Assembly: GCA_030646995.1 (NCBI GenBank) | Contig: JAUSKF010000006.1 | Coordinates: forward strand, 99,680-163,679 | Source of the DNA: a bacterium | GTDB lineage: Bacteria; Patescibacteriota; Minisyncoccia; UBA6257; WO2-44-18 | Reading direction: 5' to 3' | Length of the DNA: 64,000 bases | Shown: piece by piece, positions 145 through 28,048 of the stretch | How the letters are laid out: each line of letters starts with the position of its first letter | Numbering within the stretch: position 1 is the stretch's first letter | Translations under genes and position numbers: made by a program | Notes under the pieces: generated by a model | The model's input: only the letters and a program-made list of their open reading frames with translations | Database searches by the model: none | What the model was told of the DNA's origin: nothing

Positions 145-582
145 ATGAAAATTTATCTCGGGGGCGACCACGCAGGCCTACAATTAAAAGAAAAAGTTAA
201 AGCAGTTTTGATTGAATGGGGTCACGAAGTAAAAGACTGCGGCCCTTTTGAATATAACAATGACGATGATTATCCGGATTTTGTGAAGCTGGTTGCGGAA
301 GCGGTGGCGAAAGATCCTGATAATAGCCGCGGTATTTTATTTGGCGGCTCCGGTCAGGGAGAGGCGATGATGGCTAACCGTTATAAAAAAGTCCGGGCGA
401 CGGTTTTTTACGGTGGGCCGCAAGATATTGTTGAGCTTTCTCGAGAGCATAACAACGCCAACGTTCTTTCGATTGGTGCTCGCTTTCTTGAAGAAAAAGA
501 AGCTTTGCGTGTGATTAAGATGTGGCTGGAGGCGCCCTTCCCGGCAGAAGAGAGGCATAAACGTAGGATTGATAAGTTTTAG
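145..582 (+). CDS. rpiB: Ribose-5-phosphate isomerase B (RpiB/LacA/LacB family), Glu-base type
   Basis: ATG at 145 (MKIYLGGDHAG...); N-terminal GGDHAG Asp/His motif and a GGSGQGE motif (Glu-base variant as in mycobacterial RpiB); track ORF 88..582 trimmed to the ATG. Confidence 0.85.
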   Translation: MKIYLGGDHAGLQLKEKVKAVLIEWGHEVKDCGPFEYNNDDDYPDFVKLVAEAVAKDPDNSRGILFGGSGQGEAMMANRYKKVRATVFYGGPQDIVELSREHNNANVLSIGARFLEEKEALRVIKMWLEAPFPAEERHKRRIDKF

Positions 583-1681: not shown

Positions 1682-1711
1682 TTGACTTTTTAGGTCCTAC
1701 TATGCTATACT
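1682..1711 (+). promoter_or_regulatory. Sigma-70-like promoter upstream of DGR target gene (TTGACT-18-TATACT)
   Basis: ttgact at 1682-1687 and tatact at 1706-1711, about 80 nt upstream of the ATG at 1794. Confidence 0.5.
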
Positions 1712-1793: not shown

Positions 1794-2420
1794 ATGTCCC
1801 AAAAGAGAAGTGAGTTTCTCGGGTCATTCGGCACCGCGTTCCAGGTTTTCAAGGCCCTGACGGACGAGGTGCTGGGTATGGGCGGCGGTGATGCTGACCT
1901 GCGTCGGATAGAGACCGACAAGGGTCTGCGTCAGAAGCTCGCCCAGCTGATCGTCGGCGTTCAGGAGAAGGCCGCGAACATCTTCAAGGTGATTGTGGAC
2001 TACTCGCTGTCGCTCGCCGACATGATCAAGCAGGTAAAGTCCGACTGGACAAACTCGGACATCACTGAGAGGCACTTCCCGCGCCCGTCGATCCCACGGG
2101 GCATCTCCAAGAAGGCGGAGGTGGCCTTGGAGCTGATACATTTCAACCGGAGTATCAGCTCTGACGATGCCATCGCCGAGCTCAAAAGGCTTGGCTACCG
2201 CCCCGCCACTATCTGGGAGCTCCTCGTTTTCGGGATGACCTATCCTGAAAAGCAGAGAGAATTCCCGATCGTGGCTCTCGGCTCGGTCTGGCGGCGCTGG
2301 GGTGGCTGCCGGGGCGTTGCCTATCTCTGGAGCTCTGCCGTCGGGCGGTACCTCTTTCTGGGTTGGTTCGAGGGCGGCTGGGTTGACGGCTATCGTTTCC
2401 TGGCCGTCCGCGAGTCTTAA
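1794..2420 (+). CDS. DGR target protein (variable protein with C-terminal CLec-type variable repeat)
   Basis: Strong RBS aaaaaggaggg; C-terminal 45 aa are encoded by the VR, which matches the downstream TR except at TR adenines; stop 7 nt after the VR end. Confidence 0.85.
   Translation: MSQKRSEFLGSFGTAFQVFKALTDEVLGMGGGDADLRRIETDKGLRQKLAQLIVGVQEKAANIFKVIVDYSLSLADMIKQVKSDWTNSDITERHFPRPSIPRGISKKAEVALELIHFNRSISSDDAIAELKRLGYRPATIWELLVFGMTYPEKQREFPIVALGSVWRRWGGCRGVAYLWSSAVGRYLFLGWFEGGWVDGYRFLAVRES
2276..2411 (+). repeat. DGR variable repeat (VR)
   Basis: 136-bp repeat aligned to TR 2697..2832 at offset 421; about 28 mismatches, every one at a TR adenine (A to G/T/C); the flanks gctcggtctggc, gttgcctatctctggagc and ctatcgtttcctggccgtccgc are identical. 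Confidence 0.9.
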
Positions 2421-2433
2421 CCGCCGGAGGCGG
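2421..2433 (+). promoter_or_regulatory. GC hairpin immediately 3' of VR (DGR cruciform/hairpin element)
   Basis: ccgcc-gga-ggcgg stem-loop 9 nt after the VR end and directly after the TAA stop, the position typical for the DGR hairpin. Confidence 0.5.
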
Positions 2434-2456
2434 TCAAAGACCCTTGGACCTATGCT

Positions 2457-2489
2457 CCGCAAGAGAAATCTCTTGCGGGGCTATTTTTA
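2457..2489 (+). terminator. Rho-independent terminator after DGR target gene
   Basis: ccgcaagaga-aat-ctcttgcgg perfect 10-bp stem followed by a T-run (gctattttt). Confidence 0.7.
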
Positions 2490-2696
2490 TAAACAAGAAA
2501 ATATTTTATAATTCAGAAAGACGAAACAGCCCGTGGCTACGGTTGCGGGCGGTCTGTAAGAAAATAAATAGACTCGGTGCCCTGCGCTAGGGAATTACAG
2601 ATTCCAAATGCGATACAATCCCGAGAGTATTCATCCCACACATAACAAGTTATGTGTGGGATTCAAAGGATGGTGGCTCAGGCGGCGCGGGGCACG

Positions 2697-2832
2697 AAAC
2701 GGCTCGGTCTGGCAGCACTGGAATGGCAACCGGAACGTTGCCTATCTCTGGAGCAATGCCGACAAGCGGAACCTCAATCTGAATTGGTTCGAGAACGACT
2801 GGAATGACAACTATCGTTTCCTGGCCGTCCGC
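2697..2832 (+). repeat. DGR template repeat (TR), noncoding template rich in AAC/AAT
   Basis: Counterpart of the VR; contains the adenines that are substituted in the VR; AAC-rich (NGNRN...SNADKRNLNLNWFENDWNDN in the VR frame); preceded by hairpin cccacacataacaagttatgtgtggg at 2635-2660. Confidence 0.9.
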
Positions 2833-2840
2833 TAGAATAT

Positions 2841-3182
2841 TTATTTTTTTAGCTGTTGTTTCCATCCCCCGATAATTTTGCCGATTTCGGCAAGGGGGAT
2901 AGAAATGACAGAGTATTTTTTATTATCCAAGGCTTTTATTTCCCAGGCGATCCGCAGAGACAGCTTGAGCAAGTCCAATTTTTGGCTGACTATTCTGATT
3001 GAATTACTCCGGCTTTCTTTTGAAGAGTAAATACTGAAATAAACAGCATCAACGAAATCCAGGAACTTCTCATCTATTTTGACGCCCAAGCTATAGCGAT
3101 GGAGTTTGGTGAGGTGCGGAAAATATCCGCTCCAAATTTTGTAGGCGTCAATGGATTTTTGTAAAACATCAATATGATCCAA
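2841..3182 (-). CDS. avd: DGR accessory variability determinant (Avd-like four-helix-bundle protein)
   Basis: 113 aa between TR and RT; C-terminal LAEIGKIIGGWKQQ resembles the Bordetella phage Avd C-terminus (AEVGRILGSWI) by recall; transcribed opposite to target, TR and RT; the start codon is uncertain because the first codon read from the displayed sequence is not a canonical start. Confidence 0.6.
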   Translation of the reverse strand: MDHIDVLQKSIDAYKIWSGYFPHLTKLHRYSLGVKIDEKFLDFVDAVYFSIYSSKESRSNSIRIVSQKLDLLKLSLRIAWEIKALDNKKYSVISIPLAEIGKIIGGWKQQLKK

Positions 3183-3191
3183 ATTCCGCCG

Positions 3192-3200
3192 GGGGGGGGG
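3192..3200. repeat. Poly-G (G9) homopolymer tract in the avd/RT divergent region
   Basis: Nine G at 3192-3200; lies between ATG 3174 and the RT frame; G8 would put ATG 3174 in frame with the RT. Confidence 0.9.
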
Positions 3201-3261
3201 CGTTATAGGTAGAACCCAATTCCGTCATAGTTTTGAGGATATTATTTCTGTTGAAAATCTT

Positions 3262-4188
3262 TTGGTTACTTGGCGGGAGTTCTTGAAAGGGAAGAGGGGA
3301 AAGAAAGACGTCCAGGAATTCGAGTTTAACTTGATGGATAATATTCTATCGCTTCACGAGGAGTTAGCAAGTCAGCAATACCGGCACGGTGGCTATTATC
3401 AATTCCGGATCGCCGATCCGAAACCCCGCATAATTCACAAGGCCGAAGTCAGGGATCGCCTAGCTCATCGCGCCATTCATAGATTACTATATCCGTTTTT
3501 TGATAAGACCTTCTTTGCCGACTCCTTTTCCTGCCGTGTCAAAAAAGGCACACACCGCGCGCTTAATCGTTTTCGGGCGATGGCTTATCAAGTCAGCCAA
3601 AACCATACCAAAACCTGCTGGGTGTTAAAATGCGATATCAAAAAGTTCTTTGATAGTATCAATCACGAAATTTTCCTGAAAATACTGAAAAAATATATCC
3701 CCAACCAGAAAATTATTTGGCTTTTGGAAAATGTCATAAATAGTTTCTCAACTAGATCGGGATTCGGCTTGCCTTTAGGCAATCTCACCTCCCAACTTTT
3801 CGCCAATATCTATTTAAATGAATTTGACCAGTTCGTGAAACACAAACTTAAAGTTAAGCATTACGTTAGATATGCGGATGATTTTGTAATTTTGTCAGGG
3901 GATAAACAGCAACTTGAATACCTAATTCCCAGAATCCAGGGCTTTCTCAAAGAAAATATTGGCCTCGTTTTACACCCGGACAAGCTTTTCCTGAAAACCT
4001 TTGCTATGGGGATGGATTTTCTCGGCTGGGTGCACTTTCCGGATCATCGAGTTCTGCGATCGGTTACTAAGCGGAAAATGTTTCGGAGGTTAAAAGAAAA
4101 TAACAACGAGCATTCCAGGCGGTCATATTTGGGGATGTTGAGGCATGGGAATACGGCTCTAATTAGCGGACAGGTCGTAAAGTTTTAA
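3262..4188 (+). CDS. DGR reverse transcriptase
   Basis: Motifs GNLTSQLFANIYLN and YADDFVIL closely resemble the Bordetella phage BPP-1 DGR RT as recalled (IGSLTSQLFANVY, YMDDIV); TTG start per the track; the RT frame is open from 3178 and the N-terminal homology (HSFEDIISVENLL) lies upstream of 3262 with no canonical in-frame start unless the G9 tract contracts. Confidence 0.9.
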   Translation: MVTWREFLKGKRGKKDVQEFEFNLMDNILSLHEELASQQYRHGGYYQFRIADPKPRIIHKAEVRDRLAHRAIHRLLYPFFDKTFFADSFSCRVKKGTHRALNRFRAMAYQVSQNHTKTCWVLKCDIKKFFDSINHEIFLKILKKYIPNQKIIWLLENVINSFSTRSGFGLPLGNLTSQLFANIYLNEFDQFVKHKLKVKHYVRYADDFVILSGDKQQLEYLIPRIQGFLKENIGLVLHPDKLFLKTFAMGMDFLGWVHFPDHRVLRSVTKRKMFRRLKENNNEHSRRSYLGMLRHGNTALISGQVVKF

Positions 4189-4278
4189 AAAAGGCATTCC
4201 TTATCCTGCTTACAAGTATCATACGACCGTACGATACTTGTAAGCAGGGCAGATGGATATATTTGCTAGAATTATCAA

Positions 4279-4932
4279 ATGGTAGTAATTCCCGGTATTG
4301 AGGGCGCGGATGCTGAGTCCGTCAAAGAGCAATATGAAAAAGTTAAAGATCTTAATCCAGAAGGCTGGGTGCATTTGGATATCACTGATGGGAAGTTTTC
4401 TCCGGCAGTGAATTGGGGCTCCCCCGCGGAGCTGTCTTCCCTAGTCGCTAGTCGTAAGTCGCTAAGTACTAAGTTTGAACTGCACTTGATGGTGGAAGAA
4501 GTGGAAAAAGTTCTGGATGGCTGGCTGAAGACCGGTTTAGTGAAGCGCGTCATCGTTCACCTTGAGGCGATGACCGATCCGGTATTTGTGGCGGCAAAAT
4601 GCAAAGAATATGGCGTTGAGCCAATGCTTTCAATCAAGCCGGAGACTGAAGTGGAGGGGTTGTTTGCCCACAAAGATGACTTCCGCTCTTTTCAGGTACT
4701 GGCGGTGGCTCCCGGTTGGGCGGGGCAGAAGTTTGGGGAGGAGGCTTTAAAGAAAATCGCATGGATAAGAGAAAAAATTCCGAATGCTATAATAGAAATA
4801 GACGGCGGAATTAATCCTGAAACCGCCCGTAAATGCTTTGAAGCGGGAGGGAGCGTGCTGGTTTCTACTTCTTATATCCAGAATAGCCCCGACCCCAAAG
4901 AAGCCTATAATTCGTTAGTCGTTAGTCGTTAG
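4279..4932 (+). CDS. rpe: Ribulose-phosphate 3-epimerase
   Basis: VHLDITDGKFSP, HLMV and IEIDGGINPET motifs of the Rpe TIM barrel; contains an internal tagtcg-type repeat insertion (LSSLVASRKSLSTK) and ends inside a heptamer tandem repeat. Confidence 0.85.
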   Translation: MVVIPGIEGADAESVKEQYEKVKDLNPEGWVHLDITDGKFSPAVNWGSPAELSSLVASRKSLSTKFELHLMVEEVEKVLDGWLKTGLVKRVIVHLEAMTDPVFVAAKCKEYGVEPMLSIKPETEVEGLFAHKDDFRSFQVLAVAPGWAGQKFGEEALKKIAWIREKIPNAIIEIDGGINPETARKCFEAGGSVLVSTSYIQNSPDPKEAYNSLVVSR

Positions 4933-4958
4933 TCGTTAGTCGTTAGTCGTTAGTCGTT
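4914..4958 (+). repeat. Heptanucleotide tandem repeat (GTTAGTC)x6 spanning the rpe stop and the rpe-tkt spacer
   Basis: Six perfect 7-bp units at 4914-4955 plus a degenerate unit; related degenerate copies at 4438-4470 (inside rpe) and 35323-35348 (inside pth). Confidence 0.9.
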
Positions 4959-4963
4959 ATCTT

Positions 4964-16092: not shown

Positions 16093-17559
16093 CTTTTCTA
16101 CGTGGTTAGAGCATCCGCCCCGTTTGATATTTCGAAATTTCGATATATTGATATCGGAACCTCGACCGGGGCGGGTGTTTTATTCAGTAGGCTCGCGGAA
16201 TTATCCGCAAGCGCTTCCGGAAAAACATGGCGACTTTGATAAGTGAATAGTTTCTTAAAAAAACTAGCATCTATTTTTTAAGAAGCGGCATCCTGAAAAG
16301 GAGATAGCTCCCGGTCGCGATGCTAGATATTTTCTTTCTAGCTCGAGGCGCGACGACGAAGGCGTGGTCTGTTCTACGCCAAGGAGGAGCAACAAAGAGA
16401 TAAAAGAAAATATCAGCATCCATTCGGTTGTTGCTAAAATTTCATATCGCTTTGTCATTCCTCCTAGCAATAGAATCTATTGCTGCGTCGTCATTTCTCG
16501 CGAATATAAAATTTTCGCTAACAACGCGACGGTGATTATCTCCTTTTTAGGATGCAAACCAAGAATCATATTTCGACGAGTCATTTCGGCTCGGTCGGAA
16601 ATCTACCAAAAGAGTCAAAAATTTTGTAGTTGTCCCAATTTATTCTTGTTTCGAGCAATGAGATAAAACTTATTGTTTGAAACTTATTAATGAGGATTTG
16701 ATCCTGGTCCAGGATGAACGCTGGCGGCGTGGATAAGGCATGCAAGTCGAACGGAATATTTTTTGAAGAAGTTGAGATTATATCAATGCAACGGATGAAA
16801 ATATTTAGTGGCGAACGGGTTAGTAACACCTTAGTACATACCTCAAAGTCGGGGATAGCCATTCGAAAGAGTGAGTAATACCCGATGGTCTCGCAAGAGT
16901 AAAGTCGCAAGACGCTTTGAGATTGGCTTAGGTCTGATCAGCTAGTTGGTGAGGTAATGGCTCACCAAGGCTATGACCAGTAGGGGGATTGAGAGATTGT
17001 TCCCCAACGAGGAAACTGAGACACGGTTCCTACTCCTACGGGAGGCAGCAGTCGAGAATATTCGACAATGGACGAAAGTCTGATCGAGCGACGCCGCGTG
17101 GAGGATGAAGGTCTTCGGATTGTAAACTCCTTTTCTACAGCAAAAAGTTATTGATTACTGTAGGAATAAGACGCTGCAAACTTCGTGCCAGCAGCCGCGG
17201 TAATACGAAGGCGTCAAGCGTTATCCGGATTTATTGGGTGTAAAGAGTGCGTAGGGGGTTTTGTGCGTCTGTTGTTAAATGTCACCGCTCAACGGTGTCG
17301 CTGCAATGGAAACGGCAGAACTAGAGGGGGCTAGAGGCTAATAGAACACATGGTGTAGGGGTGAAATCCGTTGATATCATGTGGAATACCAAAGGCGAAG
17401 GCATTTAGCTGGGGCCTTCCTGACCCTTAAGCACGAAAGCGTGGGGAGCAAAAAGGATTAGATACCCTTGTAGTCCACGCCCTAAACGATGCAGATTAGC
17501 TATTTCGAGTATCGACCCTCGGAGTGGCGTAGCTAACGCGTTAAATCTGCCACCTGGGA

Positions 17560-17591
<32 letters not shown>

Positions 17592-17715
17592 AGACGGGGA
17601 CTCGCACAAGCGGTGGAACATGAGGTTCAATTCGACGGTAAACGAAAAACCTTACCAGGGTTTGAAATGCACTTGAAGACCAGCAGAAACGTTGGTCGTC
17701 TCTCAAGGACAAGTG

Positions 17716-17747
<32 letters not shown>

Positions 17748-18065
17748 CTTTGAAGTGTTCCCTTAAGTGGGTTAACGAGCGCAACCCCTATCCTGTGTTT
17801 TATATGTCACAGGAGACCGCCGTGTTTAACACGGAGGAAGGCAGGGATGACGTCAAATCCGCATGGCCCTCTGATACCCTGGGCTACACTCGTGTTACAA
17901 TGGCCGGTACAATGGGCTGCCAAACCGCAAGGTGGAGCAAATCCCATCAAAACCGGCCCCAGTTCAGATTGGAGGCTGCAACTCGCCTCCATGAAGCCGG
18001 AATCGCTAGTAATCGTGGGTCAGCTATACCACGGTGAATACGTTCTCGAGTCCTGTACTCACAAG

Positions 18066-18925
18066 AATCGCGCACAGCAGGTTATGAAGCTAAGTCGTTC
18101 AAATCGACTCCTCCGAACGAGATCGGAGCGTAGCTGAAGGATAGTCGCCAATCGCGAGAGAGGCGGCAGAAGGATCCGAAAGCAAAGAGCAGTCCCGTTA
18201 AATCCGCCAGTTGGCGGACAGCCGCCGAGCCATGGTTGGGTGGTGAGCATGGCGAAGGCAAGTGCAAGCTGTAATGGGAATGTTCGGAAAAGTCTTATAA
18301 CTTACCTGTGGAGATCTGATATTGTCCTTGACGCAGCGTCAGGGTATAATGAAATTAACGCAATATCAGAAGTCAGCTGGGTCGTAGTATTCCGACGTAT
18401 AACGTCGGAGGAAGGACCCACTCAATGAAATGCTTACGAAAGATTACATAGTTGGTTTAGTAGATGGCGAAGGGAGCTTTACGGCTTACATTCGCGATCA
18501 AAGCAAGCCAACTAAGGTCAAAAGGAGAGTTAAGGTAGAGCCAAGGTTTTATCTGAAGCTAATCGAGAAAGATAAACCAGTACTAGATGAGTTAAAGAAA
18601 TTCTTTAATTGTGGGAATGTCTATTTTCAAAAAGACAATCGCGCAAATCATCAGCATTGCTATCGCTTCGAAGTAGCCAACAGGAAAGACCTTACTGAAA
18701 TAATTATTCCGTTTTTCAAGGAAAATCAATTGAAGTTCCCTTCCAAAAGAAAGGATTTCAAGATTTTCTGCGATTTAATGAGGAGGATTAATAAAGGCGA
18801 ACACTTAACTTCGGAAGGCTTGAGTAATCTTTATAGGATTAAGCAGCAAATGCATTGAGCTCGCGTAGTGCGGGAAATCCGCTCGCTACGTGGGAACATC
18901 AATTCTTTATTTCAAAGAAAATAAT
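18066..18925 (+). mobile_element. Intron/insertion in 16S rRNA carrying a LAGLIDADG homing endonuclease gene (boundaries approximate)
   Basis: 16S homology breaks after ...cctgtactcacaag at about 18065 and resumes at cgcccgtca at 18926; aatcgc is present at both borders. Confidence 0.75.
18430..18858 (+). CDS. LAGLIDADG homing endonuclease (intron-encoded)
   Basis: IVGLVDGEGSF motif; 142 aa; lies inside the 16S insertion. Confidence 0.85.
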   Translation: MLTKDYIVGLVDGEGSFTAYIRDQSKPTKVKRRVKVEPRFYLKLIEKDKPVLDELKKFFNCGNVYFQKDNRANHQHCYRFEVANRKDLTEIIIPFFKENQLKFPSKRKDFKIFCDLMRRINKGEHLTSEGLSNLYRIKQQMH

Positions 18926-21516: not shown

Positions 21517-23232
21517 ATGGTCCAAATCCCCGACGATAAATTAAAAGAGATATTGGTAAAAGACGGCGTAGTAAGCGCCGCTGATTTTGATTCGGTAGCC
21601 AAAGATTCTAAGAGAATGGGGCAATCGGTGGCGCAGATTTTGGTTTCGAGAAATTTCATTAAGCCAGGATACTACAACGGATTGTTGGCTAAATATTTTG
21701 GCGTGGAGCCGGCGAATCTTTCTAGTCAGACAATTGATGAGGCGGCGTTGCGCTTATTAACCGAAGACCTCGCTCGCCAGAAAAAAGCAGTTATTTTTAA
21801 GCGCGACGAAGACGGGGCTTTGAATGTGGCGATGAGTGATCCGACTGACCTCGCTACGATTGAATTTCTCGCAAGCCGACTAGGCGCGCGCATCAAGCCA
21901 TATTTGGCCACCGATGAAGATTTGAAAAAGGGTTTTGCTGTTTATGGCAGAAAATCGGCGGATGACTTCCGGAAGATTATTGAGGAAAATGTGCAGGCAA
22001 CTTTGCGCGCCGAAATAGGTGGAAAGGTGGAGAAAGATGCGGCGCAAGAAGTGCCAGTGGTGGCTATCGTGGATAACTTGGTTTCTTATGCAATCGCCAC
22101 GCGAGCTTCCGATATTCACATAGAAATCTTGGAAGACGCAGTGTTGGTGCGCTATAGGATTGACGGCATTTTGCATGAAATTAGTAAAATTCCGAAAGAA
22201 GTTCATTCATCAATTTTAGCGAGGCTGAAATTGCTGGCTGGTCTACGCCTCGACGAACATTCCAAGCCGCAAGACGGACGCTTCCGCTATCAAGCGGGTG
22301 GGGATTTGATTGATATCCGCGTTTCAGTGATACCGACTTTTTACGGAGAAAAAGTGGAGATGCGCTTGCTTTCATCCACTACCCGCGCGCTTTCTTTTGA
22401 GGAGCTTGGAATGTTGCCGGACACGATTAAAACTATTCAGGAAAATACTTCTAAGACTTACGGCATTGTGTTGGTTACCGGTCCGACCGGTTCTGGAAAA
22501 AGTACCACGATTTATTCAATGTTGAGTGTTTTAAACAAACCAGAAGTGAATATTTCTACCATTGAAGATCCGGTTGAGTACGATATGAAATATATTAACC
22601 AGACGCAGGTGAATGAGGCAGCAGGCATTACTTTTGCGAATGGTTTGCGGGCGCTCCTTCGCCAAGACCCGAATATCATAATGGTGGGTGAGGTGCGCGA
22701 CGGTGAGACGGCGGAAATCGCCGTGCAGGCGGCCTTAACCGGTCACTTGGTGCTTTCAACTTTACACACCAACGATGCCGCTTCCGCTATTCCACGCTTG
22801 TTTGATTTGAAAGTAGAGCCATTTTTGGCGGCGGCGGTTTTAAATGCGATTCTTGCTCAGCGTTTGGTGCGGCAGATTTGCCCTGACTGCATTCAGTCTT
22901 ATCCGGTCACTCCAGAAATTGTGAAGATTATTCAGGGCCAGTTTAAGTCATTGGGTATTGAAGGGGAGTATAAGCCGCCGAGGGCAATGTTTAAGGGAAA
23001 GGGTTGCGCTACTTGTGGGAACATTGGCTACAAGGGGCGAATCGCTATTTTTGAAGCTTTCAGCGTGGATGAATCTTTGCGTAATCAAATCGTGGATTCT
23101 AAATTCACTTTGGACCTATTAAGGAAAGAGCTCCGGAAAAAAGGATATGTGACGATGTTTGAAGATGGGTTGCGGAAAGTTGCCAAGGGTATGACCACGA
23201 TTGAGGAGGTGTTGCGCGTTATTAGAGAATAG
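21517..23232 (+). CDS. pilB: Type IV pilus assembly ATPase PilB (GspE family)
   Basis: Walker A GPTGSGKST, Asp box, Walker B and CxxC...CxxC tetracysteine (CPDC...CATCG). Confidence 0.9.
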   Translation: MVQIPDDKLKEILVKDGVVSAADFDSVAKDSKRMGQSVAQILVSRNFIKPGYYNGLLAKYFGVEPANLSSQTIDEAALRLLTEDLARQKKAVIFKRDEDGALNVAMSDPTDLATIEFLASRLGARIKPYLATDEDLKKGFAVYGRKSADDFRKIIEENVQATLRAEIGGKVEKDAAQEVPVVAIVDNLVSYAIATRASDIHIEILEDAVLVRYRIDGILHEISKIPKEVHSSILARLKLLAGLRLDEHSKPQDGRFRYQAGGDLIDIRVSVIPTFYGEKVEMRLLSSTTRALSFEELGMLPDTIKTIQENTSKTYGIVLVTGPTGSGKSTTIYSMLSVLNKPEVNISTIEDPVEYDMKYINQTQVNEAAGITFANGLRALLRQDPNIIMVGEVRDGETAEIAVQAALTGHLVLSTLHTNDAASAIPRLFDLKVEPFLAAAVLNAILAQRLVRQICPDCIQSYPVTPEIVKIIQGQFKSLGIEGEYKPPRAMFKGKGCATCGNIGYKGRIAIFEAFSVDESLRNQIVDSKFTLDLLRKELRKKGYVTMFEDGLRKVAKGMTTIEEVLRVIRE

Positions 23233-23409: not shown

Positions 23410-23443
23410 ATTACTGTGGATAAGACCTCAATACCCCCCCCTC

Positions 23444-23513: not shown

Positions 23514-23524
23514 GGGGGGGGGGG
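23514..23524. repeat. Poly-G (G11) tract inside the signal-peptide coding region of the giant surface-protein gene
   Basis: Eleven G; ATG 23491 (MRFFRFPSGGG...) is out of frame with the 1496-aa ORF at G11 and in frame at G10. Confidence 0.9.
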
Positions 23525-23557: not shown

Positions 23558-26500
23558 TTGGTTTCTCCAAGTCATTTATTTGCCAGAGAAACTATTGTTG
23601 CGGTTCCGGTAATTAACCCGTCTGTCATTGCGAGCGAGGCAAAGCAATCTAACACCATCATCGCCAGGTCAGTTGAGGTTTATCCCACCGCCAATCTTTT
23701 TGATAGTTTTCTTAGCGTTTTTCAAAATATTAGGGAATCGATACAGAATTTTGCTGTATCACTAATTAACCTAGCCAATCCCAAAGTTCCGGTAAGTACC
23801 ACTCCTCCACCCATACGAATTGTTGCTGTTCCCGTGTCTGCGACGCCCCCGGCTCCATCTGTCATTGCGATCCGCCAGCCGGCGGAGAAGCAATCTAACA
23901 TTGATGTGGTAAAATCCGTCTCCGCCCCCACGCCGCAGATAATATATATCCAACAACCTGCTCCGACCGGTACCGTAGGAGTCTCTTCCCAGTCCCAGTT
24001 AGATTCTTTGACTGCTGACCTGCTCGCCTTCAAAAAATCTCAGCAGGCCACGACCGAAAATCTGCAATACAATATGGGTCTAATGAGCCGCATCAGCTCT
24101 CTCGGCCCAGTCGGCAGCAATCCTCTTACAATTTCCAATCCAACATTCGCCGGATCTATTACGGGCATTGAAGACGGCGATATTCCCGACGACATCACCG
24201 CTTCCAATTACCTTTTGCGCGCCGGAGGTGAGCTCAGCGGCAACCTCACTATCGCGGGTAATCTCACAGTTGCCGGCGCGCAAATTTTGGGGGGAGGTGG
24301 TGGTTCCAATCCTTTTAGCCTTGGCGGCTCCTCCGCGCAGGGGACTTTAATTTTGGGAAATGGCACCACTGCTTCTTCTACGATTTCCGGCGAATACGGC
24401 AGGTTAGGTTTTGGTTCCACTTCTCCTTATGCCCAATTCTCCATTGAGGCCGTCCAGGGCGTAGTCGGTTCTTCCACCCCCGTCTTCGTTATCGGAGACA
24501 CAGGCTCTTCTTCTCTGCTCGTTGTCTCCGGAATCAATGGAGACGTCGGCATTGGCACCAATACTCCCGGAGCCAAATTGGATGTGGGAGGCTTTGCGAA
24601 TATCAAGGGGAATCTGAATATCTCCGCTACCTCCACTGCCGGTTCCTTTGTCGCCACTTCCACTTTGAGTGTCGGAACTTCAACTCCCGGAACGAATACC
24701 CAGCTGACGGTCCAGGGCAACTCCTATTTTACGGACGGATTATCTGTTGGCATCGCCGCCACAACTACCTCTGGATCCATCGCCAGCATTTTGCAATCGG
24801 CTGGAACTTTCTACGGCTCCGGAGTCGGCACTTCCTCATTTGAAGGAGGTATCAATGTGAAAGCCAACGGGGGAATTACTTCGGCTTCGGGATTAATCGT
24901 ATCGGCGGGAAAAGTTGGTATTGGAACGACGAATCCGTCGACGGTTTTAGATGTTCTGACGCCTGGTGGCTACCGATTGCTTTTCACGGACGACGCCAGC
25001 GCTTTCCAGATAACGGGTGTGAACTCGGGTATTACTGATAACGTTCCCTTGAGGATACAGGGTACTGATTTACGTTTTTATACAAATAGTGGTGGAGCGC
25101 AGGAACGACTTCGCATAACAACAGCTGGCAATGTTGGTCTTGCCCGAACCAGCCCAGATACTCTTCTTGATCTCGGGCGGGCGGGCGACGTGACCACTCG
25201 AGATTTAAATATTATTGGCTCTGACTTGAATATCGGCAACGGCATCCTCGCTACCTCCACTCTTTCGGGAGAATATGGAAAACTCGGTCTCGCTTCCACT
25301 ACTCCCTGGGGTCAGTTCTCCATTGAAGTCTCCGGAGTTCCCGGCTCCACCACTCCCGTATTCGTTATCGGCGACTCCGGCACCTCTTCCCCAATCTTCA
25401 TCGCCAACGTCAATGGAAGAATCGGTATCGCCACCAACACCGTGGATCAATATGGAGTTCTGGGTATCGGATTATCTGTGGCAACCTCCACATACATTGA
25501 AGGAGGATTGGGAGTGGGCGTTGCTACTTCTTCTGCCGGCGGTTTGTTCGTCAAAGGATCTGCAGATATTTATGGCGGACTAATTGTACGTGGCGGTAAA
25601 GTGGGCATTGGTACGACAAATCCGGGGTCAATATTAGAACTTAATTCTAATGAGCCAGTATTGCGAATGACAACCGGTGCGCCCGGAGGACAGTGGGATC
25701 TTATTGGCGGCAATGGGGTCGGTGTAGCCGTTGGTGATTTTGTTATTTTCAATGCTGGATACGGCAACACACCGTTTAGGATCATAAACGACGCAGGAAA
25801 CTTGAATAATAATGCGTTTATAATAAAAGGTGGCAATATCGGTATCGCTACTACCGTTCCAGGAACAAAATTGGACGTCCACGGCTTCGCCAATGTCGCC
25901 GGTAATTTAACTGTTTCTGCTACGACTACCACCGGATCCCTGATTGCCACCTCTACTTTAAGCGTAGGCACTTCCACGCCCGACTCCTTAGTTCAGTTCG
26001 CAGTTGGTGGAAATTCATATTTATCCGGCGGTCTTTCCGTCGGTCGCTCCGCGACGACTACCAACGGCGCCTTGATGGCGGGAGCTATTGATGGCACCAC
26101 TTTGAATCTCTCCGGCCGATTGGATTCAATCTTTACCGGCACCTCCACATTTGCGGGAGGGGTTTCTGTCGCCGGATTGGCTTCATCAAATGGATTGAAT
26201 GTAACAGCAGGAGATTCAGTTATCGGTCCGCTAAAAGTTGGGACGGCGGCGATTACGTCGACGGTGAGATTTTTTGGCGCTGACGGATCGACAGCCGCCC
26301 CCACATACGGATTTTCGTCCCGTACCGATGCTGGTATGTATAACGTTGGTAACGGGGAAATTGGGTTGGTCGGACAAGGCTCTCTGGAGGTTCGCATTTC
26401 ATCGGGGTCGGTTCAGATTGGGTCGGGAACCTTTTTGAATTTCGGGGGCACCACCGGATGGAAATATATCGCCGCTGCAAATATTCGGCAGGGAAACTCC

Positions 26501-28048
26501 TCCTCCGCCACCCCCATCGACCAGATATTCACCCTCGGCGAAGCGAGCAGGCCGGGGACGGATACTAACATTAGTGGTGCGACTGGAACGATTCAGAGCG
26601 GTCTAGGCACTGGGATTGGAACTGAATCATCGCTTATTTTTCAGACTCCAACATTGGCCGCTTCGGGTAGCGGAGTACAAACGTATGCAACGAGATTGAC
26701 TGTCGGTTCGGCAACTTCAACCTTCACGGGAGCCTTAACTGTGGGTGGTAGCGTCGGCATCGGCACCACGACCCCACGGGCAATGTTAGGTATCGCGGCG
26801 GGTAGCTCCACTCCCGGCCTTATGATTCAGACCGAGGGCAATACCGGGCAGGGAGCAATAGCAATCGTTGTCGATGCAAATGCTAACTGTAAAGACGGAG
26901 AATCAAACGGGGCCTGCGCTCTGAACGACTTGGCTGAGTTGTATCCAGTGTCCGAACCTCTGGAGAAGGGAGATATCGTGATGTTTGATGGTGGAGCGCC
27001 CGTTCATATAAAGAAAGCGACTAGTCGGAATAGTTTAGCTGGCGCAATCTCTACTTCTCCGGCCATCGTCTTTGAAGGCTCGATGATCAAAACAATGGGT
27101 GGAGTTTACGAGTGGAAAGGGAATACCGCTCCCCTCGCTCTTTCCGGTCGTGTGCCGGTGAAGGTTTCTCTAGAAAATGGCCCAATTCATATTGGCGATC
27201 CGATAACCGTGTCTTCTACTACTCCGGGCGTTGGCGTTAAAACCATCACCTCCGGCAAGATTATCGGTTATGCCCTTGATGATTTGCTAACCGCCACTAC
27301 TGCTCCAAATTCTTTTGATAAAATCCTCGTTTTCGCCAATCTCTCGCATTGGCAAAATCCGGATGAAATCTTAGAACCGTCTTCAACGTTTATTCAGAAA
27401 ATTATTGAGGCAATAACTGACTGGCTAAAGACTGCCGTTGTTACCATTAAAGAATTAGTCGTTGATAAGCTGACGAGCAAAGAAGTTAATACCGATAAAC
27501 TTTGTGTCGGCGCCACCTGCATTACCGAGAATCAACTGCAGGCATTGCTAAACCAAAATTTACCCGTCGCGGCGGGTGTGAACGGCGGAAATAGTCCTCC
27601 TCCCGCGCCATCGCCAACTCCCGCTCCTGAATCGGCCCCCGACACCGATGCGCCGGTGATTACTTTGAACGGATTGAATCCGACCGAGATTGAAATAGGA
27701 GCGGTATATTCGGATATGGGCGCCAATGTTACCGACAACGTAAACAGCAATCTTGGTTATAAGGTCAGCTTGGATGGTGGCCCGGAAACCTACCCCCAAG
27801 AGATGGAATTGGATACTTCCATGGCTGGCGAACATATCCTAATTTTTATTGCGATTGACCAAGCGGGGAATCGCGGAACCGCCTCAAGAGTAGTGAGGGT
27901 TGTGAATCCGAACGCTCCTAGCCCAGAACCGGAACCTAGCCCTTTTCCGGAACCCAGCCCCACCCCCGAACCTTCTCCAGCTCCCGAGCCATCCCCAACT
28001 CCTAGTCCCGCTCCCGAACCCATTCCTGCGCCCGAACCCGAACTTTAG
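23558..28048 (+). CDS. Giant secreted/surface protein (1496 aa) with fibre-like Gly/Thr/Ser repeats, Ig-like domain and Pro-rich C-terminal tail; probably phase-variable
   Basis: TTG start per the track and no in-frame ATG for about 170 codons; repeated KVGIGTTNP..L(D/E) units; region resembling the C-terminal modules of phage tail fibres (family not identified); C-terminal PEPSPTPEP repeats; located inside the type IV pilus locus. Confidence 0.75.
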   Translation: MVSPSHLFARETIVAVPVINPSVIASEAKQSNTIIARSVEVYPTANLFDSFLSVFQNIRESIQNFAVSLINLANPKVPVSTTPPPIRIVAVPVSATPPAPSVIAIRQPAEKQSNIDVVKSVSAPTPQIIYIQQPAPTGTVGVSSQSQLDSLTADLLAFKKSQQATTENLQYNMGLMSRISSLGPVGSNPLTISNPTFAGSITGIEDGDIPDDITASNYLLRAGGELSGNLTIAGNLTVAGAQILGGGGGSNPFSLGGSSAQGTLILGNGTTASSTISGEYGRLGFGSTSPYAQFSIEAVQGVVGSSTPVFVIGDTGSSSLLVVSGINGDVGIGTNTPGAKLDVGGFANIKGNLNISATSTAGSFVATSTLSVGTSTPGTNTQLTVQGNSYFTDGLSVGIAATTTSGSIASILQSAGTFYGSGVGTSSFEGGINVKANGGITSASGLIVSAGKVGIGTTNPSTVLDVLTPGGYRLLFTDDASAFQITGVNSGITDNVPLRIQGTDLRFYTNSGGAQERLRITTAGNVGLARTSPDTLLDLGRAGDVTTRDLNIIGSDLNIGNGILATSTLSGEYGKLGLASTTPWGQFSIEVSGVPGSTTPVFVIGDSGTSSPIFIANVNGRIGIATNTVDQYGVLGIGLSVATSTYIEGGLGVGVATSSAGGLFVKGSADIYGGLIVRGGKVGIGTTNPGSILELNSNEPVLRMTTGAPGGQWDLIGGNGVGVAVGDFVIFNAGYGNTPFRIINDAGNLNNNAFIIKGGNIGIATTVPGTKLDVHGFANVAGNLTVSATTTTGSLIATSTLSVGTSTPDSLVQFAVGGNSYLSGGLSVGRSATTTNGALMAGAIDGTTLNLSGRLDSIFTGTSTFAGGVSVAGLASSNGLNVTAGDSVIGPLKVGTAAITSTVRFFGADGSTAAPTYGFSSRTDAGMYNVGNGEIGLVGQGSLEVRISSGSVQIGSGTFLNFGGTTGWKYIAAANIRQGNSSSATPIDQIFTLGEASRPGTDTNISGATGTIQSGLGTGIGTESSLIFQTPTLAASGSGVQTYATRLTVGSATSTFTGALTVGGSVGIGTTTPRAMLGIAAGSSTPGLMIQTEGNTGQGAIAIVVDANANCKDGESNGACALNDLAELYPVSEPLEKGDIVMFDGGAPVHIKKATSRNSLAGAISTSPAIVFEGSMIKTMGGVYEWKGNTAPLALSGRVPVKVSLENGPIHIGDPITVSSTTPGVGVKTITSGKIIGYALDDLLTATTAPNSFDKILVFANLSHWQNPDEILEPSSTFIQKIIEAITDWLKTAVVTIKELVVDKLTSKEVNTDKLCVGATCITENQLQALLNQNLPVAAGVNGGNSPPPAPSPTPAPESAPDTDAPVITLNGLNPTEIEIGAVYSDMGANVTDNVNSNLGYKVSLDGGPETYPQEMELDTSMAGEHILIFIAIDQAGNRGTASRVVRVVNPNAPSPEPEPSPFPEPSPTPEPSPAPEPSPTPSPAPEPIPAPEPEL

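What the first reader, a model, noticed from the sequence alone, without database searches (positions are those of the whole stretch)
2276..2832. Adenine-only mismatch pattern between TR and VR is direct evidence of past mutagenic homing
About 28 of 28 TR/VR differences fall on TR adenines (A to G, T or C), while several TR adenines are unchanged. Chance divergence cannot produce this pattern. It implies that the RT, Avd and TR were functional at least recently. Variable codons map to the last 45 residues of the target, with the motifs WxxW, YLWS and GWFE. The VR stops 7 nt before the target stop codon.
Basis: seen in the sequence. Interest (0 to 1): 0.6.

Follow-up and report, generated by a model that had tools for sequence, protein, structure and literature searches.

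The report
Typical CPR diversity-generating retroelement, confirmed

Summary
VR (2279-2411, the 3' end of ORF 1794-2420) and TR (2700-2832) align without gaps. They differ at 25 positions, and every one is a TR adenine (17 A>G, 7 A>T, 1 A>C). Six TR adenines are unchanged, and none of the 102 non-A positions differs (hypergeometric p ~1e-21). All other parts of a DGR are present: an Avd gene on the opposite strand (2841-3182), a reverse transcriptase (3178-4188) closest to Bordetella phage bRT with the LGxxxSQ and YADD motifs, a GC-rich shared 3' end, and a hairpin after VR. The gene order target-TR-(avd)-RT is the published "B3" architecture, typical of Candidate Phyla Radiation bacteria. Twenty-eight related loci have the same layout and the same A-only pattern. 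The target is a 208-aa protein with no Pfam match and a predicted C-type-lectin-like fold. It is therefore a new member of a known kind. One caveat: as assembled, the RT lacks a canonical start codon at the conserved position. In passing I found a conserved 7-14 nt poly-G tract between avd and RT. It sits inside a conserved antisense leader ORF and may act as a frame switch.

The parts
1682..1711 (+). Promoter-like site upstream of the target gene (TTGACT-18-TATACT with TG)
   Evidence: Consensus scan only. It is not evidence of function.
1794..2420 (+). DGR target gene, 208 aa. It has an N-terminal three-helix region and a C-terminal domain predicted to be C-type-lectin-like.
   Evidence: The ORF has a strong RBS. 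It has 322 homologs, mostly from Patescibacteria MAGs, and no Pfam, NCBIfam or PHROG match. The AF2 model has pLDDT 88.9. Nearly all of the top ~50 Foldseek PDB hits are C-type lectin-like domains (E 0.012-0.3, probability up to 0.99).
2279..2411 (+). Variable repeat (VR), codons 162-206 of the target
   Evidence: 133 nt, with 25 differences from TR, all at TR adenines.
2390..2420 (+). Candidate IMH: a 22-nt block identical to the TR end (GC-rich core CCTGGCCGTCCGC, 2399-2411), followed by VR-specific GAGTCTTAA
   Evidence: The TR counterpart (IMH*-like) at 2811-2841 diverges from position 2833 on. Function is inferred by analogy with the Bordetella phage DGR (PMC5758913).
2406..2449 (+). Three-tier hairpin or cruciform just after VR; the inner GC stem ACCGCC/GGCGGT is at 2420-2434
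   Evidence: DNA fold: -11.6 kcal/mol, z = -2.2. Relatives also carry long imperfect palindromes after VR.
2454..2491 (+). Intrinsic-terminator-like hairpin (12 bp) plus T-run at the end of the target transcript
2482..2699 (+). Non-coding leader upstream of TR, with a 13-bp hairpin at 2633-2661. It is presumed to be the 5' part of the TR RNA.
   Evidence: The RNA fold of 2560-2960 has z = -4.8. The role is inferred from the bRT-Avd RNP model (bioRxiv 10.1101/2023.10.23.563531).
2700..2832 (+). Template repeat (TR): 31 adenines, 10 AAY codons, and a theoretical repertoire of ~10^18 proteins
2855..2907 (+). Predicted long stem-loop 23 nt after TR, capped by a tetraloop and overlapping the 3' end of avd in antisense. 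It is a candidate Avd-binding stem-loop.
   Evidence: The GC stem-loop plus T-run that 25 of 28 relatives carry directly after TR is absent here.
2841..3182 (-). avd (accessory variability determinant), 113 aa from TTG 3182. It would be 128 aa from the ATG at 3228 if the tract were 9 nt.
   Evidence: Pfam bAvd 41.5 bits (cut-off 40). NCBIfam DivGenRetAVD E = 1.6e-14, which is below that model's cut-off. PHROG 'Avd protein of DGR'. G9 model.
3191..3200 (+). G10 homopolymer between the 5' ends of avd and RT
   Evidence: It is conserved in 25 of 31 and 54 of 70 related cassettes.
3169..3228 (-). Leader ORF on the avd strand (MTELGSTYNAPPPAEFGSY*). It starts opposite the RT His7 codon, runs through the C-tract, and is one base out of register with avd.
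3178..4188 (+). DGR reverse transcriptase, 336 codons stop-to-stop. The conserved N-terminus starts near 3208. The first canonical start in frame is TTG 3262, which lies inside the conserved region.
   Evidence: Pfam RVT_1 E = 6e-25. The best PDB hit is 8ub7_A, E = 9e-45; I assign 8ub7 to bRT of the Bordetella phage DGR from my own knowledge of the entry, because the depositors' name is only 'Reverse transcriptase'. The LGNLTSQ and YADD motifs and the bRT R74 equivalent are present. Start-codon problem.
4205..4248 (+). 21-bp near-perfect palindrome after the RT stop codon, probably a terminator that closes the cassette
   Evidence: (I1).

Best explanation
This is a chromosomal diversity-generating retroelement of the Candidate Phyla Radiation type, with gene order target-VR, TR, avd on the opposite strand, RT. 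The steps below are inferred from the Bordetella phage model, not shown here. An RNA containing TR is reverse-transcribed by the RT-Avd complex, which copies C, G and U faithfully but misincorporates opposite A. The mutagenised cDNA then replaces VR, with the shared GC-rich 3' block and the VR-specific hairpin defining the 3' end and the direction of transfer. The result recodes up to 20 codons (10 of them AAY) in the C-terminal, lectin-like ligand-binding face of a 208-aa soluble protein, giving a theoretical repertoire of about 10^18 variants. What the sequence shows directly is that at least one such event happened and that little time has passed since, because no non-A position differs. 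Whether the element is active now is open. The RT reading frame is intact but, as assembled, has no canonical start codon at the conserved N-terminus.
For: All 25 mismatches fall on TR adenines and none of 102 non-A sites differs (p ~1e-21), and all changes are at codon positions 1 or 2. VR lies at the 3' end of an ORF, while the A-rich copy is non-coding and sits next to avd and RT. Avd is recognised by Pfam above its cut-off and by PHROGs. The RT is closest to bRT (8ub7_A, E = 9e-45) and keeps the DGR signature [I/V/L]GxxxSQ, YADD and the R74 equivalent (PMC7826257). The TR-(avd)-RT order is the B3 architecture, reported for 90% of CPR DGRs (PMC5758913). Twenty-eight related loci have avd on the opposite strand and TR/VR pairs in which 497 of 509 differences are at TR adenines. 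TR adenines sit in the family-variable columns, and the invariant scaffold residues (L178, R185, W196, R201) are encoded without adenine. The target is predicted to have a C-type-lectin-like fold. A hairpin follows VR.
Against: No alternative VR alleles could be found. The exact protein forms a one-member cluster and the next homolog is 62% identical. A TR/VR pattern scan of metagenomes found nothing. Variation within a population is therefore not shown. The RT has no ATG, GTG or TTG at the conserved start: the closest relatives L083 and L084 use TTG where this genome has CAA at 3217-3219. The GC stem-loop that most relatives carry right after TR is missing. The contig assembled straight through VR, which suggests one dominant allele in the sampled population. 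The lectin-fold evidence is moderate, since no Foldseek hit has E <= 0.001.
Confidence: 0.93

Rival explanations
1. This is a DGR relic. Retrohoming happened in the past, but the element is now inactive because the RT start codon and the TR-proximal stem-loop have been lost. On this reading the VR is a frozen allele.
For: There is no canonical start for the RT before TTG 3262, which lies inside the conserved N-terminal motif. Three changes cluster in and just before the codon that the closest relatives use as TTG: ATT TTG in L083/L084 against ACC CAA here. The stem-loop plus T-run after TR is absent, unlike in 25 of 28 relatives. The contig assembled through VR.
Against: The RT is open for 336 codons with all catalytic motifs, and Avd is intact. 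None of 102 non-A TR/VR positions differs. Two relatives that also lack the stem-loop (L009, L023) still show A-only patterns (22 of 22 and 17 of 17). A one-base change in the adjacent G10 tract would restore an in-frame ATG.
Confidence: 0.25
2. The two copies are an ordinary duplicated segment that diverged by normal mutation and selection, and the adenine pattern is coincidental.
For: None beyond the existence of a direct repeat.
Against: The probability that all 25 differences fall on the 31 adenines by chance is ~1e-21. The direction is consistent, with the A-rich copy non-coding and the A-poor copy coding. The cassette includes Avd and a DGR-type RT, and 28 related loci repeat the pattern.
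Confidence: 0.001
3. The VR shown is an assembly consensus or chimera of several co-existing VR alleles, not the sequence of any single cell.
For: The source is a metagenome-assembled genome. Contigs of relatives often break at this locus; for example, L001 and L002 end about 100 nt after the target gene.
Against: The contig is continuous across the locus (169 kb), and the VR keeps an open frame with no stop codon. Even a chimera of alleles would still show A-only differences, so the DGR conclusion would stand.
Confidence: 0.05

Closest known systems
CPR-type DGRs with 'B3' architecture TR-(avd)-RT (Wu et al. 2018, NAR 46:11, PMC5758913), corresponding to the Patescibacteria-restricted DGR clade 2 of Roux et al. 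2021 (PMC8144416)
   Same: The gene order and strands are the same (avd inverted between TR and RT). The element is chromosomal and sits in a Patescibacteria-like genome. It has a single adjacent small target with no recognisable domain or transmembrane segment, AAY-rich TR codons, and an A-only TR/VR spectrum. Twenty-eight loci with this layout and the same target family were recovered here.
   Different: Nothing fundamental differs. This copy lacks the GC stem-loop found right after TR in most relatives, and it lacks a canonical RT start codon. Assignment to Roux clade 2 is inferred from host and architecture; no tree was built.
Bordetella phage BPP-1 DGR (mtd-avd-TR-brt), the experimental prototype
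   Same: The RT is homologous to bRT (E = 9e-45) with the same signature motifs. An Avd homolog is present. VR lies at the 3' end of the target, followed by a GC-rich shared end block and a hairpin. The target has a C-type-lectin-like variable domain. Mutagenesis is adenine-specific.
   Different: Here avd is on the opposite strand and downstream of TR, so the upstream 'avd' RNA segment of the phage RNP has no direct counterpart. The element is cellular, not phage-borne. The substitution spectrum is G-biased (17 G, 7 T, 1 C here; 319:105:73 in relatives). In vitro, bRT-Avd misincorporates dA most, then dC, then dG (PMC7826257), which I convert to sense-strand A>T, then A>G, then A>C. Selection on the VR could also explain the difference. 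The target is a 208-aa protein without a phage-tail context.
C-type-lectin-fold DGR variable proteins (Mtd, TvpA, and the archaeal and Thermus variable proteins)
   Same: The variable residues are concentrated in the last ~45 residues of a predicted CLec-like domain, and conserved aromatic and Arg scaffold positions are interleaved with variable ones.
   Different: No sequence-level match was found to any solved structure or to Pfam. The fold assignment rests on an AF2 model and moderate Foldseek scores against animal C-type lectins.

Membership tests
Diversity-generating retroelement (DGR) | A TR/VR repeat pair whose differences fall (almost) only on TR adenines | tested here: met
   25 of 25 differences at TR adenines, 0 of 102 at non-A sites, p ~1e-21.
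Diversity-generating retroelement (DGR) | A reverse transcriptase of the DGR clade with the [I/V/L]GxxxSQ motif in place of QGxxxSP, and YxDD | tested here: met
   LGNLTSQ and YADD are present. The best solved relative is 8ub7_A, taken to be bRT, at E = 9e-45, far ahead of retron-type and group II intron RTs at ~1e-20. The motif definition comes from PMC7826257. No RT phylogeny was built.
Diversity-generating retroelement (DGR) | VR located at the 3' end of a protein-coding target, with adenines at codon positions 1 and 2 (AAY-rich) | tested here: met
   VR covers codons 162-206 of 208. All 25 changes are at positions 1 or 2, and the TR has 10 AAY codons.
Diversity-generating retroelement (DGR) | An accessory protein Avd (four-helix bundle) encoded in the cassette | tested here: met
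   Pfam PF22296 bAvd scores 41.5 bits against a cut-off of 40. PHROG 3206 'Avd protein of DGR' has E = 4e-10. NCBIfam DivGenRetAVD scores 54 bits, below its strict 80-bit cut-off.
Diversity-generating retroelement (DGR) | An IMH/IMH* pair at the 3' ends of VR and TR, and an inverted repeat after VR only | tested here: inconclusive
   A 22-nt identical GC-rich block is followed by divergent sequence. A GC hairpin lies at 2420-2434, within a longer hairpin at 2406-2449, after VR and not after TR. The fold z-score is only -2.2, and function cannot be tested in silico. The repeat is reported in only 34% of DGRs (PMC5758913), so it is not strictly defining.
Diversity-generating retroelement (DGR) | Ongoing diversification: several VR alleles for one TR within or between populations | tested here: inconclusive
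   No near-identical target was found among 5.8 billion proteins (one-member cluster, next homolog 62% identical). A TR/VR pattern scan of metagenome contigs gave 0 hits. The closest RT relatives (80% identical; L083, L084) carry a different target and TR. Reads are not available.
CPR 'B3' DGR architecture (Wu et al. 2018) | Core order TR-(avd)-RT with avd on the reverse strand | tested here: met
   TR 2700-2832 (+), avd 2841-3182 (-), RT 3178-4188 (+). The same order holds in 28 of 28 related loci that have an avd hit.
C-type-lectin-fold DGR variable proteins | The variable residues are displayed on a CLec fold | tested here: inconclusive

The most novel reading that the evidence does not exclude
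The G10 tract at 3191-3200 may be a conserved functional element of this whole CPR DGR clade rather than a spacer. It may act as a homopolymeric frame switch shared by the antisense-overlapping 5' ends of avd and, in some loci including this one, the RT. On the avd strand, an ATG opposite the RT His7 codon opens an ORF that is kept free of stop codons up to the C-tract in 59 of 59 loci (0 antisense stops against 27.5 expected). Yet only 15 of 59 loci are in register with the Avd body across the tract, and roughly half of the out-of-register loci have no other canonical Avd start. Slippage at the tract, either at the DNA level (phase variation) or during transcription, would then decide whether Avd is made. 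In this window the same one-base change (G10 to G9) would also restore an ATG for the RT. That would make targeted hypermutation itself an on/off contingency trait.
Probability: 0.3. Interest if true: 0.65.

Novelty: new member of a known kind. Interest (0 to 1): 0.3.

Why it matters
For the finding itself, the value lies in annotation. It identifies a hypothetical 208-aa protein (family of at least 322 members, no Pfam match) as a DGR-diversified, probably lectin-like binding protein in a Patescibacteria-like genome, and it places the locus in the known CPR B3 class. It adds no new principle. The side observation could matter more. If the conserved poly-G/C tract gates Avd and RT production, it would be a regulatory layer on DGR mutagenesis that I did not find described in the searched literature. 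It would also explain why many CPR avd genes appear to lack start codons.

Tried and rejected
- Exact-protein look-ups of the target, Avd and P0001 found no contigs on record.
- The closest target homolog (P0002, 62% identical) sits on contigs that end about 100 nt after the gene, so no cassette could be compared.
- A scan of metagenome contigs with the TR pattern, with A replaced by N, gave 0 hits.
- The closest RT relatives (80% identical; L083, L084) carry a different target and TR.
- The Rfam gathering-threshold search found no known RNA family in the cassette.
- Profile searches of the target family against PDB sequences and Pfam gave only noise.
- I first suspected that avd on the minus strand was unusual. 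It is the published B3 architecture.
- I suspected that the G10 tract was a sequencing artefact. It is conserved across many independent assemblies.
- I considered that 'PPP in frame with Avd' was meaningful. It is trivial, because a homopolymer reads the same in every frame.
- I considered that the simultaneous rescue of RT and Avd by G9 was a double coincidence. It is a single event, because both upstream ATGs are codon-aligned antisense copies of His codons.
- My first RT query (from 3204) was out of frame. RT coordinates from those calls are offset by one base and were redone with the correct frame. The Avd and target results were not affected.
- The register across the tract shows no significant departure from uniform (about 21, 33 and 18 loci by my hand count; chi-square p ~0.07 by hand). 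The data therefore do not favour an 'always in frame' design.

Full report
**1. The observation**

A direct repeat of about 136 nt with a start-to-start spacing of 421 nt is present at 2279-2414 and 2700-2835. In the ungapped alignment, VR 2279-2411 and TR 2700-2832 differ at 25 positions.
- At every one of the 25 positions the downstream copy has A (17 A>G, 7 A>T, 1 A>C).
- That copy has 31 adenines, and 6 of them are unchanged.
- None of the 102 non-A positions differs.
- If 25 mismatches were placed at random among the 133 positions, the chance that all fall on the 31 adenines is 1.0e-21.

It therefore includes TR AAA (2697-2699) against VR TCT. These three bases sit just outside the first identical block (2279-2292) and there is no homology beyond them, so they cannot be scored either way. 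The strict count is 25 of 25.

All 25 changes are at codon positions 1 or 2, in residues 167-199 of the 208-residue product of ORF 1794-2420. The VR as a whole spans residues 162-206. The motifs WRRW, YLWS and GWFE are present. The last shared base is 2411 and the stop codon is at 2418-2420. The first non-A difference (G2412 against T2833) lies immediately 3' of the shared block. No other VR-like copy exists in the 64-kb window on either strand.

**2. The surrounding cassette**

- **Avd.** The ORF at 2841-3182 on the minus strand is an Avd homolog. Pfam bAvd scores 41.5 bits against a gathering score of 40. PHROG 'Avd protein of DGR' matches. NCBIfam DivGenRetAVD has E = 1.6e-14 but is below its strict cut-off.
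- **RT.** The frame 3178-4188 on the plus strand encodes a reverse transcriptase (RVT_1, E = 6e-25). Its best solved relative is 8ub7_A, a 328-aa 'Reverse transcriptase', at E = 9e-45. From my own knowledge I take this entry to be bRT from the Bordetella phage DGR cryo-EM series. Retron-type and group II intron RTs follow at about 1e-20. The alignment shows the DGR signature LGNLTSQ ([I/V/L]GxxxSQ), YADD, and the equivalent of bRT Arg74. That residue and Ile181 are reported to promote adenine mutagenesis (PMC7826257).
- **VR 3' end.** The VR ends in a 22-nt block identical to the TR end, with a GC-rich core (CCTGGCCGTCCGC). It is followed only in the VR copy by a nested hairpin at 2406-2449, whose inner stem ACCGCC/GGCGGT is at 2420-2434. 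An intrinsic-terminator-like hairpin follows at 2454-2481.
- **TR codons.** The TR contains 10 AAY codons and 20 codons that can vary, a theoretical repertoire of about 10^18 proteins. Only the single AAG codon can mutate to a stop codon.

**3. Architecture and relatives**

I first thought the inverted avd was odd. It is the published 'B3' architecture TR-(avd)-RT, which Wu et al. report for 90% of their CPR set and hardly anywhere else (PMC5758913). Roux et al. describe a cellular DGR clade restricted to Patescibacteria whose targets lack recognisable domains (PMC8144416).

The target has 322 homologs at E <= 0.001, mostly from Patescibacteria MAGs. None has a Pfam domain. The exact sequence is recorded once, as a hypothetical protein of an unclassified 'bacterium' MAG on a 169-kb contig.

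A scan of one genome per species with the family alignment returned 80 loci, nearly all from Patescibacteria.
- In the 28 loci with an avd hit, avd is always on the strand opposite to the target, downstream of a TR copy.
- In 28 measurable TR/VR pairs, 497 of 869 TR adenines are changed, against 12 of 2506 non-A positions.
- The substitutions are G-biased (319 G, 105 T, 73 C), like the window (17:7:1).
- In vitro, bRT-Avd misincorporates dA, then dC, then dG opposite template A, which I convert to sense-strand A>T, then A>G, then A>C. Selection on the VR could contribute to the difference, so I treat it as descriptive only.
- The window's 81% of adenines changed is at the high end of the relatives' range (23-80%).

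**4. The target protein**

The family alignment shows a conserved scaffold, QREFPIVALGSVW..G.R.VA.L.....R.L.L.W....W....RFLAVRK. The variable columns coincide with the TR adenine codons. The invariant residues L178, R185, W196 and R201 are encoded without adenine.

An AF2 model built on 40 sequences has mean pLDDT 88.9. It shows an N-terminal three-helix region and an alpha/beta domain from about residue 63. Nearly all of the top ~50 Foldseek PDB hits are C-type lectin-like domains, but with moderate scores (E 0.012-0.3, probability up to 0.99, target-normalised TM ~0.5). Profile searches against PDB sequences and Pfam give nothing. I see no signal peptide or hydrophobic segment by eye. This agrees with what Roux et al. 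report for CPR targets. The biological ligand is unknown.

**5. How recent, and is the element active?**

Zero differences at 102 non-A sites means little independent evolution since the last homing event. This supports 'functional at least recently'.

Direct evidence of ongoing variation could not be obtained.
- No near-identical target exists in the protein collection.
- A TR/VR pattern scan of metagenome contigs found nothing.
- The closest RT relatives (L083 and L084, 80% identical, from Hainich groundwater 0.1-um fractions) carry a different target and TR.

Two features argue for caution.
- **RT start codon.** The RT frame has no ATG, GTG or TTG at the conserved N-terminus. Relatives begin MKIQLxHxFEDIIS, and L083 and L084 begin at a TTG. 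The window reads GRTQFRHSFEDIIS, with CAA (3217-3219) at the TTG position. The first canonical start is TTG 3262, inside the conserved motif.
- **Stem-loop after TR.** The GC stem-loop plus T-run that follows TR in 25 of 28 relatives is absent here. Two relatives that also lack it still show A-only patterns. The window has a different predicted long stem-loop at 2855-2907.

The RT is otherwise open for 336 codons with all motifs, so any inactivation would be recent.

**6. Side observation: a conserved homopolymer and an antisense leader ORF**

*The tract.* Between the 5' ends of avd and RT lies G10 (3191-3200). A G tract of 7-14 nt (mode 9-10), always G on the RT-sense strand, occupies the same place in 25 of 31 cassettes from the target-based set. 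It is also present in 54 of 70 cassettes from an independent RT-based metagenome set. Other G or C runs of 7 nt or more are rare in the same sequences: 10 in 860 kb and 6 in 412 kb.

*The leader ORF.* On the avd strand, the antisense of the conserved RT His7 codon (CAT, window 3226-3228) is an ATG.
- The frame it opens is free of stop codons up to the C-tract in 59 of 59 loci that have His at that position. Each of the other two minus-strand frames is stop-free in 7 of 59.
- In the RT register between the tract and His7 there are 0 TTA/CTA/TCA codons among 628. At the RT-body rate, 27.5 would be expected. Shuffles predict 26.8 open loci and 59 are observed.
- TTA and CTA make up 30% of Leu codons in the RT body but 0 of 61 in this segment.

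This is the signature of a maintained coding frame.

*Register across the tract.* The register between this leader and the Avd body is in frame in only 15 of the 59 loci. Those give a 127-143 aa Avd beginning M[SN][QE][LF]NFH...PPP...LPIIQK, apart from one that ends after 100 aa. The register is off by one in 28 loci and off by two in 16. In these the leader ends after 15-57 codons. About half of all loci have no ATG, GTG or TTG for Avd after the tract, whatever the register.

*In the window.* The register is off by one. The leader is MTELGSTYNAPPPAEFGSY* (3169-3228, minus strand). Avd has a TTG at 3182. A tract of 9 G would put both the leader ATG in frame with Avd (128 aa) and ATG 3174 in frame with the RT (337 aa). 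This is one coincidence, not two, because both ATGs are codon-aligned antisense copies of His codons.

*Other evidence.* L083 and L084 are 97.8% identical over 2.5 kb, and one of their three indels is at the tract.

*Possible readings.* The tract could mediate DNA-level phase variation or transcriptional slippage. Alternatively, the ORF could encode a poly-proline-stalling leader peptide that is translationally coupled to avd. The data do not discriminate between these. Three full-text searches found no description of the feature (and the DGR reviews). The key CPR DGR paper (Paul et al. 2017) is not in the held library.

**7. Verdict**

The locus is a standard CPR B3-type DGR with a new but ordinary family member as its target. 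Interest for the finding as stated is low to moderate. The homopolymer and leader-ORF feature is the part worth following up.

Noticed in passing
window 3191-3200 (G10), with minus-strand leader ORF 3169-3228; also about 80 related cassettes (e.g. L007 7387-7396, L017 6606-6619, L114, L136): A conserved 7-14 nt poly-G tract lies between the avd and RT 5' ends. On the avd strand an ATG opposite RT His7 opens an ORF kept stop-free up to the tract in 59 of 59 loci (0 antisense stops against 27.5 expected). It is in register with the Avd body in only 15 of 59. The tract may be a frame switch or the ORF a poly-proline leader peptide.
   Followed up: partly
window 3205-3262: The RT lacks a canonical start at the conserved N-terminus: CAA 3217-3219 where the closest relatives have TTG. 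ATG 3174 would be in frame only with a 9-G tract. L045 is in the same state.
   Followed up: partly
window 145-582, 1196-1654 and 4267-4348: The DGR sits at a rearrangement junction inside a pentose-phosphate gene cluster. ORF 1208-1654 is a chimera: its first ~24 codons plus 12 upstream bases copy the start of rpe (4279-, 79% nt identity), and the rest copies rpiB (145-582, 74-86% identity). It lacks the RpiB N-terminal strand.
   Followed up: no
window 4912-4960 (and a degenerate copy at 4438-4458): A tandem heptanucleotide repeat (TCGTTAG) of about seven copies lies at the 3' end of rpe, just before the transketolase gene. A related degenerate stretch lies inside rpe.
   Followed up: no
window 23434-23441 (C8) and 23514-23524 (G11): Two more long homopolymer tracts lie in the intergenic region between a PilB/GspE-like ATPase gene (21517-23232) and a 1496-aa repetitive surface-protein gene (23558-28048). 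This is a classic setting for phase variation.
   Followed up: no
window 16686-18114 and 18350-18417: A bacterial 16S rRNA gene covers the whole Rfam model in only 1429 nt. About 235 nt downstream there is a group-II-intron D1-D4 match exactly at the gathering score (35.4 against 35).
   Followed up: no
related loci, directly after TR (e.g. L021 6907-6960, L016, L030): A GC stem-loop followed by GTTTTGTTTT lies directly after TR in 25 of 28 relatives, preceded by a conserved CGCAAATCTCTTTATT. It looks like a terminator or the Avd-binding stem-loop of the bRT-Avd RNP model. It is missing in the window, L009 and L023.
   Followed up: partly
28 related TR/VR pairs: The substitution spectrum at TR adenines in this lineage is G-biased (64% A>G, 21% A>T, 15% A>C). 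This differs from the dA > dC > dG misincorporation order reported for bRT-Avd in vitro. Either RT bias or selection could explain it.
   Followed up: partly
L043 6001-7026, L066 6001-7428, L036 5433-6927, L023 2475-4052: Some relatives carry two or three tandem paralogs of the target gene. Many loci (about 50 of 80) have the target without a nearby TR, avd or RT, which suggests remote or orphan targets.
   Followed up: no
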